Positions 2,933 through 56,615 of a DNA stretch of 64,000 nucleotides are shown here, piece by piece; the first letter of the stretch is position 1; every line of letters starts with the position of its first letter. The position numbers and the translations under genes are program-made. Below the pieces are notes generated by a model, which saw only the letters and a program-made list of their open reading frames with translations, did not search any database and was not told the DNA's origin. The stretch is from Escherichia virus TH57, in the sequence record MT446422.1; one strand, given 5' to 3'.

Positions 2933-3399
2933 ATTACGATAGAATATATCCTTGCGATTTTATTAATGGTCCTGGCTGCAGGGCCGTTCTTTTCGTTACA
3001 GGTTGTTTGCATAAATGCGAAGGGTGTTATAATAAATCAACATGGAATGCTAGAAATGGTGTTCCATTCACTGGTGAAACACTAGAACAATTAATTGAAT
3101 GTTTGAATAATGATTATATAGAAGGATTGACTATAACTGGAGGAGACCCTCTCTATCCCGATAACCGAGATGTTATTCACTCTGTGGTTCAAACTATTAA
3201 AAATCTTTATCCCAATAAAAGCATTTGGTTGTGGACCGGATATAAGTTTGAAGATATTAAACAACTAGAAATGCTTAAATATGTTGATGTTATTATTGAT
3301 GGGAAGTATGAGAAAAATCTTCCGACCAAAAAACTGTGGCGAGGGTCAGATAATCAGCGACTTTGGTCAAATACCGATGGGGTGTGGAAACATGATTAA
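2929..3399 (+). CDS. nrdG: anaerobic RNR activating protein (radical SAM)
   Basis: 156 aa; CxxxCxxC cluster motif (CLHKCEGC); start overlaps nrdD stop. Confidence 0.9.
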   Translation: MNYDRIYPCDFINGPGCRAVLFVTGCLHKCEGCYNKSTWNARNGVPFTGETLEQLIECLNNDYIEGLTITGGDPLYPDNRDVIHSVVQTIKNLYPNKSIWLWTGYKFEDIKQLEMLKYVDVIIDGKYEKNLPTKKLWRGSDNQRLWSNTDGVWKHD

Positions 3400-24262: not shown

Positions 24263-24428
24263 GATTTCGGTCTTCCAGATTTTTGAAGAATATGAAATCG
24301 TGTCGCAAGACCAAGAAGCAATCCATGTTATCGCTGATGATGGTGTTACCTGGATTATTCCGTTGTATCATGAAGACACTTATGAAGTGACTGATGCAAA
24401 TGGTGATAAAGCTATCTTCGTTGTATAA
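24237..24428 (+). CDS. hypothetical protein (63 aa)
   Basis: ORF overlapping the preceding gene by 26 nt. Confidence 0.3.
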   Translation: MSAMCTGSKISVFQIFEEYEIVSQDQEAIHVIADDGVTWIIPLYHEDTYEVTDANGDKAIFVV

Positions 24429-24647: not shown

Positions 24648-25676
24648 ATGTCATATATTGATAAAGAATTTGCGGTCAGAGCTTTATCGTATCAACCACG
24701 TTATAGAGAAGTCACCGGGAGCACATTTAAAGCAAACTGTCGTTGTAAGGTTTGCGGGGACTCCCAGAAAGATTCACATAAGGCTCGATTCTGGGCGTAT
24801 ACCAATCCGTCTGATGGTGCGGTTTACGTGAAATGTTTTAACTGTGACTACTCCACGCATATAAGCAAATACATAAAAGAGTTTGAGCCGGATTTGCACC
24901 GGGAATATATGGTTGAGAAGTACAAGGAAAATGCCTTCGGTCGACAACGTAATGAAGTTGCAGAAACTCCGAAAGAACCAGAAAAAACTCCGGTTATTGA
25001 AGAGCTTGCTTTTTGCGAAAGAATCGATACTTTACCAGAAGCACATCCGATAGTTAAGTATGTGAAAAGTCGGTGTATTCCGAGCAATGTTTGGAACCGG
25101 TTATGGTTTACAAACAAATGGCCTGCATTAGTTAACTCCGTTAATCCTGGGACGTATAAGAATGAAACGAATGAACCACGCTTGGTTATTCCTATCTTCA
25201 ACGGCAAAAAAGAAATCGAATCTTTCCAAGGACGAGCTCTTCGCAAAGATGCACCACAAAAATATATCACAATCAAAGCTCACCCAGAAGCTTCCAAAGT
25301 CTATGGCGTAGACAAGATTGATGAGCGCAAGCGCGTGTGGGTAATGGAAGGTCCGATTGATAGTTTGTTTATCCCTAACAGCATTGCGATAACCGGTGGA
25401 ACATTAGCATTGGAAGCCGTTCCTTATGCTGAAACCCGAGTATGGGTAATGGACAACGAGCCAAGACATCCGGATACGATTAAACGTATGAAGAAACTCG
25501 TTGAAGCTGGCGAAGCTGTTATGTTCTGGGACAATGCACCATGGCATACGAAAGACATAAATGAGATGGTTAAATCGGAGGGTGCAACCCCTGAACAAAT
25601 CGAATCATATATGGCCGATAACGTTGCTCAAGGGCTGATGGCGAGAATGCGACTTTCGAAGTACGCAAAAGTTTAG
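24648..25676 (+). CDS. 61: DNA primase gp61
   Basis: 342 aa; N-terminal zinc ribbon (CRCKVCGDS ... CFNC); canonical position after 41. Confidence 0.92.
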   Translation: MSYIDKEFAVRALSYQPRYREVTGSTFKANCRCKVCGDSQKDSHKARFWAYTNPSDGAVYVKCFNCDYSTHISKYIKEFEPDLHREYMVEKYKENAFGRQRNEVAETPKEPEKTPVIEELAFCERIDTLPEAHPIVKYVKSRCIPSNVWNRLWFTNKWPALVNSVNPGTYKNETNEPRLVIPIFNGKKEIESFQGRALRKDAPQKYITIKAHPEASKVYGVDKIDERKRVWVMEGPIDSLFIPNSIAITGGTLALEAVPYAETRVWVMDNEPRHPDTIKRMKKLVEAGEAVMFWDNAPWHTKDINEMVKSEGATPEQIESYMADNVAQGLMARMRLSKYAKV

Positions 25677-25784
25677 GAAGGGATTCCGGTAAAGTAACCG
25701 ATGATGGAATGGATATGTTCCATTGTGACCTGAGGTAAGTGTACCCCTTGTGATGCAGCGATAGGCATAACCAGTAAGTTCTAC

Positions 25785-25982
25785 CTATATAAGGCCGATT
25801 AATGCCAGTGAAACATCTACAACTGATTCGAGTGCGATGACTGGCAATATAACGCCATGTGCCAATGCAACAGGGGCAACAATGAAATTCCAGAGTAGAA
25901 CTAAACAGAGTATCGAAAGGACTAGAATCGTTCGCTTACGACTGCCTTTGATGGCTTGAATTAGACTAGATAGTTTTAGCAT
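25785..25982 (-). CDS. small membrane protein (65 aa) on the late strand
   Basis: Only minus-strand ORF inside the early block; AAGGAGGA RBS upstream of ATG 25982 (alternative TTG start at 26012); two hydrophobic helices. Confidence 0.4.
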   Translation of the reverse strand: MLKLSSLIQAIKGSRKRTILVLSILCLVLLWNFIVAPVALAHGVILPVIALESVVDVSLALIGLI

Positions 25983-26066
25983 ATATCCTCCTTTCTTGTA
26001 TTTATGCTTCAAACCAATATGATATAATTAACATACAAACAACATGAATTGATAAGGAAAAATATA

Positions 26067-26585
26067 ATGGCTCATTTTAATGAATGTTCACAACTGATTG
26101 CTGGTGTTGACAAAGCTGAAGAAGCTTATGACAATGCAATTATCGAAGGCACTGACCCGCTGCAGATTATGCTTGATATGCAGAAATCATTGCAGGTCCG
26201 TTTGGCTACTGAAAAACCAGAATACAACTCACATCCAGACGAATTGGCTACCGCCGGCGATGTTGTTGCATGGCTTCGTAACCAGAAAGATTATGTTGAT
26301 GATGAATTCCGTGAACTTCTAACTTCTCTCGGTGGTATGTCTAATGGCGAGAAAGCTGCATCTAGTGTATGGAAGCCTTGGAAAGCCCAACATGCTGAAT
26401 TCCGTAATCGTCGTATTGATGAGTTGTCTCCTGAAGACCAGCTCGAAATTAAATTTGAGATGATTGACATCCTGCACTTTGTTCTGAACATGTTCCATGG
26501 TCTTGGCCTGTCGGCAGAAGAAATCTTTAAATTGTATTACCTGAAAAATGCTGAAAACTTTGCTCGTCAAGACCGAGGTTATTAA
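26067..26585 (+). CDS. 56: gp56-like dCTP/dUTP pyrophosphatase (MazG-like all-alpha NTP pyrophosphatase)
   Basis: 172 aa from ATG 26067; acidic metal-binding helices (DDEFRELL, EIKFEMIDILHF); position between 61 and soc as in T4. Confidence 0.6.
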   Translation: MAHFNECSQLIAGVDKAEEAYDNAIIEGTDPLQIMLDMQKSLQVRLATEKPEYNSHPDELATAGDVVAWLRNQKDYVDDEFRELLTSLGGMSNGEKAASSVWKPWKAQHAEFRNRRIDELSPEDQLEIKFEMIDILHFVLNMFHGLGLSAEEIFKLYYLKNAENFARQDRGY

Positions 26586-26866
26586 TGGCTCGTTTAAATA
26601 AACGACAGCTTAAGAAAGCTCGTAAGAAGCATATTAATGATATAATTGAAAACGCTAATGTTGAAATCTTTGTAGAACTTTTAGCCAATCAACTAAAAAA
26701 TTTATCTAAACAAGAAATTGCTATGAATACTGAAAATGCTAAAAATGTAATCGAAACTCATAATGTTTTTGCCCAAGCTACTGCTGAATACATTGCTAAT
26801 CCTACTGCTGAAAATCTAGCTAAAATGACCGAAGCCAATAAAGCAGTCCAAGCCGCCAAATTGTAA
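26585..26866 (+). CDS. hypothetical protein (93 aa)
   Basis: ORF; basic N-terminus, helical. Confidence 0.45.
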   Translation: MARLNKRQLKKARKKHINDIIENANVEIFVELLANQLKNLSKQEIAMNTENAKNVIETHNVFAQATAEYIANPTAENLAKMTEANKAVQAAKL

Positions 26867-26868
26867 GT

Positions 26869-26876
26869 TATAAATA
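26869..26876 (+). promoter_or_regulatory. late promoter TATAAATA for soc
   Basis: Exact TATAAATA about 32 nt upstream of soc ATG. Confidence 0.6.
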
Positions 26877-26907: not shown

Positions 26908-27141
26908 ATGGGTGGTTTCGTTAATATCAAAACCTTCACGCATGCAGCTGGTGAAGGTAAAGAAGTTAAAGGTACTGAGGTTTCAGTTCCATTTGAAATC
27001 TATTCTGATGCGCATCGTATTGCTAATGCTCATTATCAGACTTTCCCTTCGGCCGTTGCAGCCTATTCTACCGTAGTGACTGATGCTGCTGACTGGAAGA
27101 CCAAGAACGAGGCAATGTTTACGCCGACCGATATTGTTTAA
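26908..27141 (+). CDS. soc: small outer capsid protein Soc
   Basis: 77 aa; motifs FVNIKTF and AHYQTFPS..AAYSTV as recalled for T4 Soc; late promoter TATAAATA upstream. Confidence 0.8.
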   Translation: MGGFVNIKTFTHAAGEGKEVKGTEVSVPFEIYSDAHRIANAHYQTFPSAVAAYSTVVTDAADWKTKNEAMFTPTDIV

Positions 27142-50846: not shown

Positions 50847-51122
50847 ATGACTAAATTTGAAATTGTTTCTGAAATTGTTACTATAACTTCAATTTTGATT
50901 AAAACCGACCGGGAAGATATTACGATGAAGCGTGATGTGTTTATCGCGTTTTTGAATGAGTTGGGATTAAGGAATGAGAATGGTAATGAGTTAAACAATG
51001 TATCGTTTAACAAGTTGTTTAAAAGTTTATCTGAAGATGAAATTGAACAAATCATTGAACAATTTAACGAAGGATTCGAAGATATACACCGATATCTGAT
51101 GATGTATACCTCCGGATTCTAA
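50847..51122 (+). CDS. asiA: anti-sigma-70 factor AsiA
   Basis: 91 aa; matches recalled T4 AsiA (ILIK..REDI, FIAFLNE, EQFNEGFE..YRYLMMYT). Confidence 0.85.
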   Translation: MTKFEIVSEIVTITSILIKTDREDITMKRDVFIAFLNELGLRNENGNELNNVSFNKLFKSLSEDEIEQIIEQFNEGFEDIHRYLMMYTSGF

Positions 51123-51772
51123 CGTGTACGCCCGAGCGTACGACCTGCTTGCCCACACATAGCAGAAAGCCTATCAAAACTAAGGTCGGGTTTTTGCTTA
51201 TACCAGTACAGCGAGACTGTACCTGCATAAACGTTTTCCAAATTAAAGAATGGGCAGCTGAACATATATTCGAAGCTGCTTTTTTTCTTTGTTGGTAAGA
51301 ATACAGATTCCGTGCCGGATTCAAAATAATTACCATTAACCCCCGCCAAATATTCCGCTGAAGTTTTATCTATTGGAAACCCACCCAAGTTTTTTTCGTC
51401 GACTGTATCAGGTAATATCCCCTCATAACCCACCATATCCACGAAGTAGTTAAGGTTAGTTGGTCTAAAAGAATATATTGCTGTAAAGTCTGCCCCACTT
51501 GATGAGTGAACTATCTGGATTTGCTCGATAGCTGCAATTTTAAATCTGTTATCCTGGTCTTGCCTTATCATTTCTGTGTACGAGGCATATGAAGCATCCC
51601 TATACGCATCTAAAATTGCATCACCTTTATACCAGATTACCGCCATTAAAAATAATAGAACAATAACTAGTACCCGGGAAAAAACAACTTTCCCGGTTGC
51701 ATTATCTTTAAAAATTCTATCAAGAAGTCCAAAAAGTAGGTCGGGTATTGAGATTCCTACTTTTGGTTCCAT
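51119..51772 (-). CDS. t: holin T
   Basis: 217 aa; matches recalled T4 holin (DLLFGLLDRIFKDNATGKV, N-terminal TM segment, C-terminal SAMCGQAGRTLGR); late promoter upstream. Confidence 0.9.
   Translation of the reverse strand: MEPKVGISIPDLLFGLLDRIFKDNATGKVVFSRVLVIVLLFLMAVIWYKGDAILDAYRDASYASYTEMIRQDQDNRFKIAAIEQIQIVHSSSGADFTAIYSFRPTNLNYFVDMVGYEGILPDTVDEKNLGGFPIDKTSAEYLAGVNGNYFESGTESVFLPTKKKSSFEYMFSCPFFNLENVYAGTVSLYWYKQKPDLSFDRLSAMCGQAGRTLGRTR
51126..51141. promoter_or_regulatory. palindromic hairpin at the convergent asiA/t junction
   Basis: GTACGC ccga GCGTAC just past the overlapping stop codons of asiA and t. Confidence 0.35.
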
Positions 51773-55955: not shown

Positions 55956-56615
55956 TTAATAATATCCAAAATCTTCAGATGTGCCTCTAAGAACAACCTG
56001 GTCGATACGAGGAACGTGTTCGTTCAATGTACCTGGGTTCCTAGATATGAAATTCGGGGCTGAAAGAACGCCAGCCATAGATTGTATGCTACTATTATTT
56101 ATTTGGACCTGTTTTGCGTTATCCACATCACTTAATCCAACTTGTGCTTTTGACGGAGTATTCCCTGGAGAAAACACTCGACCTGATTCGTCTTTAATTT
56201 GACGACCAAGGATATCACCCATTACAGTAAGACGGTTTGCACCTACAACAGTAGTCGGGTCGAAAATTACAAACGGTGTTCCATCCGATGTCTCAAGACC
56301 CAGACCTTTGCTCATTCTAAATGAGAAAGAATATGTAGCAGACATTGGGGATGTATTGGTTTTTCTACCCAATTTAACCCAATACCCATCGGAATCTTTA
56401 AATTGTAAGTCTTTATCAAAGTTTACTGTACTTAAATAATTCCCACCATTAGCTTTAGAAACAAAGTCGTTATCTGCTGCTTGCGGTTTATTGAATTCTG
56501 TATATACTTTATATGTTTTGTAAAATAAATCATTGCTTACTGGCGTCAACGGAAAGTTGCCCTGGTGCCAGATAACTGAGCCCCCAGTCGTTGAGCCTAC
56601 TCTTAAATCGGCCAT
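55956..56615 (-). CDS. 36: long tail fibre distal connector gp36
   Basis: 219 aa; position between 35 and 37; late promoter and RBS upstream. Confidence 0.8.

What the first reader, a model, noticed from the sequence alone, without database searches (positions are those of the whole stretch)
25677..26066. Reverse-oriented small membrane gene and a 110-bp structured non-coding stretch between primase 61 and gene 56
ORF 25785-25982 is the only minus-strand ORF in about 50 kb of plus-strand early genes. It has a strong AAGGAGGA RBS and two hydrophobic helices. The adjacent 25677-25784 segment has no ORF and contains a hairpin (AATGGA tatgt TCCATT). A late-strand membrane protein here could be a lysis or injection accessory; the non-coding stretch could be a small RNA or terminator region.
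Basis: seen in the sequence. Interest (0 to 1): 0.45.

Follow-up and report, generated by a model that had tools for sequence, protein, structure and literature searches.

The report
Conserved late membrane gene plus paralog relic
The backward-facing small ORF is a real, widely conserved T4-family gene for a tiny membrane protein of unknown function, probably switched on late in infection (it is unannotated in T4 itself), and the neighbouring "non-coding" stretch is only the leftover half of a deleted sister gene, not an RNA element.

Summary
The window is a T4-like phage of the genus Gaprivervirus (98.8% to phage TH54). The minus-strand ORF at 25785-25982 (65 aa, AAGGAGGA RBS) exists as described. 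It is the only credible opposite-strand gene in about 51 kb of early genes. It belongs to phrog_2024 (unknown function). Homologs converge on primase gene 61 in at least eight Tevenvirinae genera, and about 700 phage records carry one. T4 has an unannotated copy at NC_000866 17738-17938. dN/dS is 0.15-0.6, and a late-promoter box (nATAAATA) sits 12-24 nt upstream of the start in five genera. I read it as a late-transcribed small inner-membrane protein with one transmembrane helix flanked by short amphipathic helices.

The "110-bp structured non-coding stretch" is not an RNA element. It is the 3' half of a second tandem paralog (66 aa, intact in VR26 and MN01). A 97-bp deletion between 8-bp direct repeats destroyed it here, and other Gapriverviruses lost it in different ways. 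Its folding energy is no better than shuffled sequence, it has no Rfam match and no terminator, and the hairpin is not conserved.

Function is untested. The holin link is weak: sub-threshold 3-TM-holin similarity, and distant members lying near lysozyme genes. The gene is already annotated as hypothetical, so interest is modest.

The parts
25785..25982 (-). ORF-A: 65-aa small membrane protein gene (phrog_2024, 'A-type', ortholog of the unannotated T4 ORF at NC_000866 17738-17938 and of RB32ORF030w)
   Evidence: phrog_2024 E=3.8e-26, full length; 697 phage records, 689 with at least 80% coverage; dN/dS 0.15-0.6; variable sites by codon position 10/4/16
25986..25993 (-). Shine-Dalgarno AAGGAGGA, 4 nt upstream of the ATG
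   Evidence: GGAGG-type SD kept in most genera; GGAG or GGTGG in Mosigvirus and Kanagawavirus
25999..26006 (-). T4-type late-promoter-like box CATAAATA (consensus TATAAATA, deviating only at position -13); predicted start about 6 nt downstream, giving an ~11-nt leader
   Evidence: searches (nATAAATA 12-24 nt upstream of the start in Gapriver-, Tequatro-, Mosig-, Kanagawa- and Jiaodavirus; ATTAAATA in Gelderland- and Moonvirus; motif depleted in the window, 8 of 11 copies lie upstream of start codons, including t, soc and gene 34), PMC2988020 and PMC1524935 (position -13 is the most variable position of the box). Inferred, not shown experimentally
25673..25780 (-). Relic of ORF-B: the last 35 codons plus the stop of a second, paralogous 66-aa gene ('B-type'). 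Its stop overlaps the gene 61 stop. The start codon, RBS and about the first 30 codons were lost
   Evidence: alignment with VR26, MN01, VR20; in-frame NLLVMPIAASQGVHLPQVTMEHIHSIIGYFTGIPS*; tblastn covers residues 28-66 only in SP18, P896 and other Gapriverviruses with this deletion
25777..25784 (.). Deletion junction: the single retained copy (AGTTCTAC) of an 8-bp direct repeat AGTTCCAC that flanks the missing 97 bp in intact genomes
   Evidence: VR26/MN01...CCAGTAAGTTCCACAG...(97 bp)...CATAGTTCCACCTA...
25706..25722 (.). It lies in the relic's codons M-E-H-I-H-S and is not conserved
   Evidence: (pairs broken in VR26, SP18 and phage 212, without compensation)
26002..26028 (+). Predicted MotA-dependent middle promoter of gene 56 (MotA box TATGCTTCA at 26003-26011, 11-nt spacer, -10 TATAAT at 26023-26028). 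It sits back-to-back with the late box and overlaps it
   Evidence: sequence; a middle promoter is annotated at the equivalent place in phage fPS-90. The consensus is from my own knowledge of T4 middle promoters; inferred

Best explanation
ORF-A (25785-25982, minus strand) is a genuine, vertically inherited Tevenvirinae gene. It is transcribed from its own gp55-type late promoter (CATAAATA, 16 nt before the ATG), on the strand that T4-type phages use only late in infection, and translated from a strong SD. The product is a 65-residue inner-membrane protein. It has a short N-terminal amphipathic helix, a basic patch (KGSRKR, expected to face the cytoplasm), one long transmembrane helix with invariant W31-N32 and P37, a G-x3-P turn, and a short acidic amphipathic C-terminal helix expected on the periplasmic side or at the interface. 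Its most likely job is an accessory membrane function late in infection, of the holin-like or lysis-timing kind. It is not the main holin, which is gpt, encoded at 51119-51772. Because there is no terminator downstream, its transcript probably also runs antisense into primase gene 61. The neighbouring 108 bp (25673-25780) has no function of its own. It is the 3' relic of a tandem paralog (ORF-B), inactivated here by a 97-bp deletion between 8-bp direct repeats. Shown: the ORF, its family membership, synteny, purifying selection, the paralog relic and the conserved motif. Inferred: late timing, topology, antisense read-through and any role in lysis.
For: Gene reality: phrog_2024 full-length match at E=3.8e-26. 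tblastn finds it in 697 phage records, 689 of them near full length, down to under 50% identity with no stops. It holds the same position and orientation, converging on primase, in Tequatrovirus/T4, Mosigvirus, Gaprivervirus, Kanagawavirus, Jiaodavirus, Gelderlandvirus and Moonvirus. The B-type copy overlaps or abuts the primase gene in the Dhakavirus records, where its strand relative to primase was not checked. dN/dS is 0.15-0.6 and third positions are the most variable.

Late promoter: ATAAATA is invariant 12-24 nt upstream of the start in five genera whose flanks otherwise differ, and TAAATA is kept in two more. ATAAATA is depleted in the window (11 copies against 21.3 +/- 4.1 expected), and 8 of 11 copies sit just upstream of start codons, including holin t, soc and gene 34. 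Published reviews say all T4 early and middle transcription has the opposite polarity and that position -13 is the variable position of the box (PMC2988020; PMC1524935).

Membrane protein: AlphaFold mean pLDDT 78, helices 4-10, 14-41 and 51-61. Net charge is positive at the N-terminus and acidic at the C-terminus (read from the sequence).

Holin-like lead: 3 of 17 diverse members give sub-threshold hits to PF11351 GTA_holin_3TM (best E=0.03). Distant member P0119 hits holin phrog_3427 at 5e-4. In non-T4 phage contigs the members lie close to genes for a T4-type lysozyme, endonuclease VII and the tail tip; in L018 the member is first in the same-strand run that ends with the lysozyme.

Relic: alignment and in-frame translation. 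ORF-B was lost independently several times in the genus: a 97-bp deletion, an 85-bp deletion, a nonsense codon plus a 2-bp deletion, and a homing-endonuclease insertion.
Against: No transcript, protein or phenotype data could be consulted. The T4 dRNA-seq TSS table was not readable. The promoter box deviates from consensus at -13 (C here, G in T4), and only A at -13 is documented as common. No Pfam, NCBIfam, PDB or informative fold match exists for the window protein itself. The holin similarity is below every curated threshold and is seen only for distant members. The protein lacks the charged C-terminal tail typical of holins and is not next to an endolysin gene in T4-like genomes. From my own knowledge, T4 t mutants do not lyse, so the protein cannot be a sufficient holin. 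One tandem copy is dispensable in nature.
Confidence: 0.6

Rival explanations
1. The important product is the RNA, not the protein. A late promoter placed here fires a transcript that runs antisense through primase gene 61 (and through the relic) to shut down primase mRNA late in infection. On this view the ORF is incidental.
For: The ORF converges on gene 61 with overlapping stop codons in most genera, and no terminator was found downstream. T4 is known to transcribe both strands at some sites at different times (PMC2988020).
Against: Selection acts at the amino-acid level (dN/dS 0.15-0.6; codon-position pattern 10/4/16). W31, N32, P37, G43 and P47 are invariant among 27 sequences at 20-98% identity to the window protein. 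A Shine-Dalgarno sequence is kept in all genera examined. The ORF is intact in 689 of 697 records. An antisense effect may exist in addition, but it cannot explain these features.
Confidence: 0.1
2. The protein protects the infected cell rather than acting in lysis. It would work like Imm or Spackle, excluding superinfecting phage, or would counter a host membrane-based defence.
For: It is a small inner-membrane protein in a region rich in host-interaction genes (sp, dmd, 61.2-like). The family diversifies quickly into A and B types with tandem duplication and loss, a pattern often seen in conflict genes.
Against: Known T4 exclusion genes are early genes on the other strand (knowledge of T4 biology). 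The conserved late-type box and the orientation point to late expression. The window protein was not scanned against PADLOC, and there is no homology to Imm or Sp.
Confidence: 0.15
3. The 25677-25784 stretch is a functional RNA element: a small RNA, or the terminator shared by gene 61 and the minus-strand ORF.
For: A hairpin of 6 bp (11 pairs as RNA with G-U) begins about 24-30 nt after the gene 61 stop.
Against: Folding z-scores are -0.52 and -0.66. No U-run or terminator was called and there is no Rfam hit. The segment is absent in T4, Mosigvirus and other genera, where the ORF abuts gene 61. Part of it is deleted in EAWsc9. The hairpin is broken without compensation in VR26, SP18 and phage 212. 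The sequence is explained entirely as the codons of ORF-B.
Confidence: 0.04
4. The ORF is a chance open frame or a decaying gene with no function.
For: It is small, unannotated in T4, T2 and SP18, and one paralog is clearly decaying.
Against: All the conservation evidence above. ORF-A is intact in all eight Gapriverviruses compared, whereas ORF-B is broken in six of them.
Confidence: 0.03

Closest known systems
PHROG family phrog_2024 (unknown function), including RB32ORF030w, VR20 gp029 (YP_009207208.1) and VR26 gp031/gp032
   Same: Full-length profile match (E=3.8e-26). Same length, same position converging on primase gene 61, same orientation.
   Different: Nothing essential: the window ORF is a member. 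In this genome the second, B-type member is reduced to a 108-bp relic.
Unannotated T4 ORF, NC_000866 17738-17938 (+), between dam and gene 61
   Same: 52% identical over 63 residues, with the same SD (AAGGAGGA), the same ATAAATA box upstream and the same convergence on gene 61.
   Different: In T4 the stop codons of the ORF and gene 61 overlap directly, with no relic between them. dam lies between the ORF and gene 56. T4 has a hairpin plus T-run for the early strand inside the ORF's first codons (annotated as a terminator in fPS-90); this is absent in the window.
Small phage holins, especially the C-terminal transmembrane region of 3-TM holins (Pfam PF11351 GTA_holin_3TM; phrog_3427)
   Same: Small size, a hydrophobic helix, predicted late expression. 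Sub-threshold profile similarity for distant family members (E=0.03-0.1 and 5e-4). Distant members lie near lysozyme genes.
   Different: Only one clear TM helix instead of two or three. No charged C-terminal tail. Not adjacent to an endolysin gene in T4-like genomes. No curated threshold is reached. The T4-type holin is gpt, present in the window at 51119-51772 (identity of the gene by synteny and my own knowledge).
T4 late genes embedded among early genes (e.g. soc at 26908-27141, with TATAAATA at 26869-26876)
   Same: A stand-alone late-promoter box 12-35 nt upstream of a start codon with an SD, inside the early region.
   Different: soc lies on the same strand as the early genes. ORF-A is on the opposite strand and its box has C at -13.

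Membership tests
phrog_2024 (uncharacterised small phage protein) | Significant full-length match to the family profile | tested here: met
   E=3.8e-26, residues 1-65 on profile positions 1-65 of 65
phrog_2024 (uncharacterised small phage protein) | Conserved core W-N-(F/Y/L)-x4-P-x5-G-x3-P with a basic N-terminal segment | tested here: met
   W31, N32, P37, G43 and P47 are invariant in 27 sequences
T4-type late gene | TATAAATA box about 6 nt upstream of the transcription start, close to the gene | tested here: met
   CATAAATA (7 of 8 positions; the deviation is at -13, the most variable position of the box) 16 nt before the ATG. It is conserved across genera, and the motif is otherwise depleted (PMC2988020, PMC1524935)
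T4-type late gene | Transcription dependent on gp55, gp33 and gp45, appearing after replication starts | not testable with these tools
   Needs RNA data. The published T4 TSS table could not be read
Holin | Small protein with at least one transmembrane domain | tested here: met
   65 aa; helix 14-41 in the AlphaFold model, hydrophobic
Holin | Match to a curated holin family above threshold | tested here: not met
   The window protein has no Pfam or NCBIfam hit at E<=10. Only distant members hit PF11351, at 13-15 bits against a cut-off of 24.8
Holin | Hydrophilic, highly charged C-terminal tail | tested here: not met
   The C-terminus is ...SLALIGLI, with no charged tail
Holin | Encoded in a lysis cassette next to the endolysin gene | tested here: not met
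   It is flanked by primase and dCTPase in all T4-like genomes examined. Proximity to a lysozyme gene is seen only for distant members in other phages
Holin | Forms membrane lesions and is required for lysis | not testable with these tools
   Needs genetics or physiology
Small RNA or intrinsic terminator (for 25677-25784) | Stable structure beyond chance; a G+C-rich stem followed by a U-run; conservation or covariation | tested here: not met
   z = -0.52 and -0.66; no terminator called; no Rfam match; the hairpin is broken in relatives
Pseudogene relic of ORF-B (for 25673-25780) | In-frame homology to part of an intact gene in relatives, with loss of the start codon and RBS | tested here: met
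   35 codons plus the stop align with VR26 and MN01 ORF-B; a 97-bp deletion between AGTTCCAC repeats

The most novel reading that the evidence does not exclude
T-even phages, including T4 itself, carry an overlooked, near-universal late gene for a 65-residue membrane protein derived from the last transmembrane segment of a 3-TM holin. It would act as a new regulator of the lysis clock, for example by modulating holin T or lysis inhibition. This would add a component to one of the best-studied lysis systems.
Probability: 0.12. Interest if true: 0.6.

Novelty: new member of a known kind. Interest (0 to 1): 0.3.

Why it matters
T4 is a reference organism, yet its RefSeq record has no gene in the 309-bp gap between dam and 61. 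The homolog there has all the marks of a real, conserved, late-expressed membrane protein. Adding it to the T4 gene list and knocking it out would be cheap. It could reveal an accessory factor of late envelope events such as lysis timing or lysis inhibition. The relic next door documents gene loss by short-repeat deletion and the turnover of a duplicated small gene within one phage genus. It is also a caution against reading short 'structured' intergenic stretches as RNA elements before comparing relatives.

Tried and rejected
These searches and readings gave nothing, or were dropped:
- Rfam scan of 25500-26200 at E<=1: no match.
- Terminator and sigma-70 promoter scan of 25000-26800: no terminator near the region. 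The only minus-strand sigma-70-like site upstream of the ORF scores 9 of 12, within chance expectation.
- RNA folding of both strands of the 108-bp stretch: not better than shuffled sequence.
- Pfam, NCBIfam and PDB sequence searches with the protein or the family profile: no significant hit. The PDB hits were acetylcholine-receptor TM helices at E>=0.1.
- Foldseek against viral structures: only family members, one of them named 'Holin' by UniProt, and nothing else below E=1.
- Profile search of 1.84 billion representative proteins: only 18 hits, all small proteins of the same family, and none linked to a characterised family.
- A third word-based search with distant members added: no Pfam-annotated relatives.
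- Literature searches (ORF030w, T4 Ribo-seq, T4 antisense/TSS, opposite-strand ORFs): no paper discusses this ORF. The T4 dRNA-seq study reports 150 phage TSSs including 22 antisense ones, but its table is not held as text.
- The search for related loci with an alignment of distant members failed for lack of a conserved block, and P0117 gave nothing.
- A signal-peptide reading (A-x-A-like 'ALA|HG' after the hydrophobic helix) was considered and set aside. W31, N32 and P37 inside that helix are the most conserved residues of the family, which is unusual for a cleaved signal peptide. This was not tested.
- A type I toxin-antitoxin reading was considered and dropped: there is no evidence for a dedicated antisense RNA.

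Full report
**What the window is**

The 2.1 kb around the finding is 98.8% identical to Escherichia virus TH54. It is 89-95% identical to SP18, VR20, VR25, VR26, RZ and other members of the genus Gaprivervirus (Straboviridae, Tevenvirinae). Gene order matches T4... sp, 61.2-like, 61.4-like, 61.1-like, primase 61 (24648-25676), the region in question, then dCTPase 56 (26067-26585), soc, mrh.2 and so on. All of these are on the plus strand of the window.

**Checking the observation**

- The ATG is at 25980-25982 and the stop at 25785-25787. It encodes 65 codons. AAGGAGGA lies 4 nt upstream of the ATG.
- In VR20 the same ORF (gp029) is the only opposite-strand CDS among the 89 features annotated in the first 45 kb.
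- In the window a greedy ORF tiling leaves five other minus-strand ORFs before 51.1 kb. Each overlaps plus-strand ORFs, and for the four that fall in the part covered by the VR20 record only plus-strand genes are annotated there. The real minus-strand block (t, 38, 37...) starts at 51119.
- The hairpin also exists.

So the sequence-level observation holds. The description of 25677-25784 as a structured non-coding element does not, as shown further down.

**The ORF is a real, conserved gene**

- It matches PHROG family phrog_2024 (unknown function) over its full length at E=3.8e-26.
- tblastn finds it in 697 phage records, 689 of them near full length. Most are only 45-55% identical, and that set includes T4, T2, T6, RB14 and RB51.
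- In T4 the homolog (66 aa, MVQKLMALVNAIKGNKKR...) lies at NC_000866 17738-17938, in the 309-bp gap between dam and gene 61. RefSeq annotates nothing there. The exact T4 sequence has no NCBI protein accession in the 15-billion-protein collection. RB14 and RB51 call it RB32ORF030w.
- The gene holds the same place and orientation, converging on the 3' end of primase gene 61, in Tequatrovirus, Mosigvirus, Kanagawavirus, Jiaodavirus, Gelderlandvirus, Moonvirus and Gaprivervirus. In the Dhakavirus records the B-type match overlaps or abuts the primase gene; its strand relative to primase was not checked there.
- Among eight Gapriverviruses, pairwise dN/dS is 0.18-0.63. It is 0.15 for T4 against fPS-90 and 0.21 for the two Mosigviruses compared.
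- Variable sites fall 10/4/16 on codon positions 1/2/3 of the minus-strand frame.
- In 27 sequences at 20-98% identity to the window protein, W31, N32, P37, G43 and P47 are invariant.

A chance ORF is excluded.

**When the gene is expressed**

All T4 early and middle transcripts have one polarity, and only late transcripts use the other strand (PMC2988020). So an opposite-strand gene here must be late. I found sequence support for this.
- nATAAATA lies 12-24 nt upstream of the start in Gaprivervirus (CATAAATA, 25999-26006), T4 (GATAAATA), fPS-90 and Mosigvirus (AATAAATA), Kanagawavirus (TATAAATA) and Jiaodavirus (two copies).
- Gelderlandvirus and Moonvirus have ATTAAATA at the same place. The surrounding bases are otherwise not conserved between genera.
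- The late consensus is TATAAATA. Position -13 is the most variable position of the box, with A replacing T at nine of 50 listed T4 sites. A TA-to-AT variant also exists among listed T4 promoters (PMC2988020; PMC1524935).
- ATAAATA is depleted in the window: 11 copies against 21.3 +/- 4.1 expected.
- Eight of the 11 copies sit just upstream of a start codon. These include holin t (51791), gene 34 (61723), the gene at 56615 (56641) and soc (26870).

Late, gp55-dependent transcription is therefore well supported by inference. It has not been shown. The one relevant data set I found (T4 dRNA-seq: 150 phage TSSs, 22 of them antisense) does not have its table available as text.

**What the protein looks like**

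- AlphaFold with the 27-sequence alignment gives mean pLDDT 78, with helices at 4-10, 14-41 and 51-61.
- The N-terminal part is basic (K3, K12, R15, K16, R17). The C-terminal part carries E52 and D56 on one face of a short helix. These charges are read directly from the sequence.
- By the positive-inside rule, an N-in/C-out single-pass protein with an interfacial or periplasmic amphipathic tail is the best reading. A helical hairpin is not excluded.
- The window protein has no Pfam or NCBIfam hit even at E<=10. It has no PDB relative. Foldseek matches only its own family.

**Wider family and hints about function**

A profile search of 1.84 billion representative proteins returns only 18 hits. 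All are proteins of 33-82 residues (mostly 57-82) with the same core, and all ten of the distant ones I tested match phrog_2024 independently. The family therefore extends beyond T4-like phages.

In three such contigs the member lies in a late or lysis-type neighbourhood.
- L018: endonuclease VII, then the member, two unknown genes and a T4-type lysozyme on the same strand, next to the tail-tip gene.
- L025: central tail fibre J, a 92-aa protein with weak XhlA/spanin-like hits, a lysozyme, and the member four genes further on.
- L022: tail fibre genes, endonuclease VII, the member, and a lysozyme 3.4 kb away.

Three of 17 diverse members give sub-threshold hits to Pfam PF11351 (holin of 3 TMs; best E=0.03, 15 bits against a cut-off of 24.8). 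These hits cover its last TM and tail. One distant member hits holin phrog_3427 at 5e-4. That similarity may be the basis for the occasional database labels 'Holin' (UniProt A0A482MZV5) and 'holin family protein' (EAWsc9); I did not trace their origin.

Against calling it a holin:
- It has a single clear TM helix.
- It has no charged C-terminal tail.
- It is not next to an endolysin gene in any T4-like genome.
- The T-even holin is gpt, present at 51119-51772, without which T4 does not lyse (my own knowledge).

I therefore treat 'holin-like accessory membrane protein acting late' as the most likely mechanism, with low confidence (about 0.25 for the functional part). The gene, membrane-protein and late-timing parts have high confidence.

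**The '110-bp structured non-coding stretch'**

I aligned the intergenic region with other Gapriverviruses. VR26 and MN01 carry a second minus-strand ORF of 66 aa directly downstream of ORF-A, and its stop overlaps the gene 61 stop. Its sequence is MGTLFYQIWKLTSKKDKKLIMGFLALD(V/I)FLWNLLVVPIAA(S/T)QGVHLPQVTM(E/G)HIHSIIGYFTGIPS. It is a paralog of ORF-A at 22-25% identity with the same W-N...P...G...P core.

This 'B-type' is the only copy in Dhakavirus, Kanagawavirus and several Klebsiella and Pectobacterium T4-like phages. 'A-type' is the only copy in Tequatrovirus and Mosigvirus. Gaprivervirus is the only genus I saw with both in tandem in annotated genomes; one unclassified 30.5-kb metagenomic contig also carries both types.

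In the window, SP18 and phage 212, 97 bp are missing between two copies of AGTTCCAC. That removes the RBS, the start codon and about the first 30 codons. The remaining 25673-25780 reads in frame as NLLVMPIAASQGVHLPQVTMEHIHSIIGYFTGIPS*.

Other relatives lost ORF-B in other ways.
- EAWsc9, TH55 and UPEC07: a different 85-bp deletion.
- VR20: a nonsense codon at codon 2 plus a 2-bp deletion.
- RZ: the same nonsense codon plus a homing endonuclease gene inserted after gene 61.
- VR7: a truncation.

ORF-A is intact in all of them.

The segment folds no better than shuffled sequence (z = -0.52 and -0.66). It has no U-run and no Rfam match. The stretch is a pseudogene relic.

**Surroundings**

The 84 bp between ORF-A and gene 56 hold a MotA-box/-10 pair on the plus strand (TATGCTTCA, 11 nt, TATAAT at 26023-26028). 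This is a predicted middle promoter for gene 56. It lies back-to-back with the late box and overlaps it. fPS-90 annotates a middle promoter at the equivalent place.

No terminator follows ORF-A on the minus strand. Its transcript is therefore expected to continue antisense into gene 61, which is a possible secondary effect.

**Verdict**

- The ORF observation is right, and the 'late-strand small membrane protein' idea is well supported.
- The RNA-element idea is wrong.
- The gene is already annotated as hypothetical in many relatives and belongs to a PHROG family of unknown function, so this is a new member of a known, uncharacterised kind.
- Its absence from the T4 reference annotation and its conservation across the subfamily make it a reasonable small target for a knockout. 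It is not a surprising finding.
- Interest is about 0.3.

Noticed in passing
T4 NC_000866 17738-17938 (+), locus L005 3239-3439: The T4 reference genome has no annotated feature in the 309-bp gap between dam and gene 61. Yet that gap holds a 66-aa homolog of this ORF with an AAGGAGGA RBS and a GATAAATA box upstream. The exact T4 protein has no NCBI accession in the collection searched.
   Followed up: yes
window 26002-26028 (+) and 25999-26006 (-): A predicted MotA-dependent middle promoter for gene 56 (TATGCTTCA, 11 nt, TATAAT) overlaps, back-to-back, the late-promoter-like box of the minus-strand ORF. In T4 the transcript of gene 56 is annotated as the primer RNA of replication origin oriA.
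   Followed up: partly
whole window; ATAAATA at 609, 24425, 26870, 38350, 63790 (+) and 25999, 37074, 51791, 56096, 56641, 61723 (-): The late-promoter core ATAAATA is about two-fold depleted (11 copies against 21 expected; every shuffle had at least 11). Eight of the 11 copies lie just upstream of start codons, including holin t, gene 34 and soc. Perfect TATAAATA boxes at 24424 and 38349 lie upstream of plus-strand genes inside the early block; the one at 24424 precedes the 61.1-like gene just ahead of primase, which suggests those genes also have late expression.
   Followed up: partly
L012 (phage RZ) 1374-2123; also Yersinia phage P8 and phage DK-13: Some Gapriverviruses carry a homing endonuclease gene inserted right after primase gene 61, overlapping its stop and displacing the ORF-B relic. 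T4 instead has dam at this junction, and fPS-90 has a homing endonuclease between the small ORF and gene 56. The 61-56 junction is a hot spot for insertions.
   Followed up: partly
L005 (T4) about 3258-3277; L007 (fPS-90) 1496-1536: In Tequatroviruses a hairpin (ATGGCA...TGCCAT) followed by a T-run on the early strand lies inside the first dozen codons of the small ORF. fPS-90 annotates it as a terminator, so it probably ends the gene 61 transcript. The window phage has no equivalent, so gene 61 transcripts there may read through towards gene 56.
   Followed up: no
GenBank records UPEC01, SAKp28, P8, VAC36: Several deposited genomes label the small B-type ORF 'DNA packaging ATPase'. Some label the 61.1-like ORF 'major capsid protein'. 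These are clear annotation errors that spread through similarity-based naming.
   Followed up: no
window 25673-25768 (-): A V-to-M change in the relic (LLVVPIAA to LLVMPIAA) creates an ATG that opens a 31-codon frame (MPIAASQGVHLPQVTMEHIHSIIGYFTGIPS). No Shine-Dalgarno sequence precedes it, so it is probably not expressed.
   Followed up: partly
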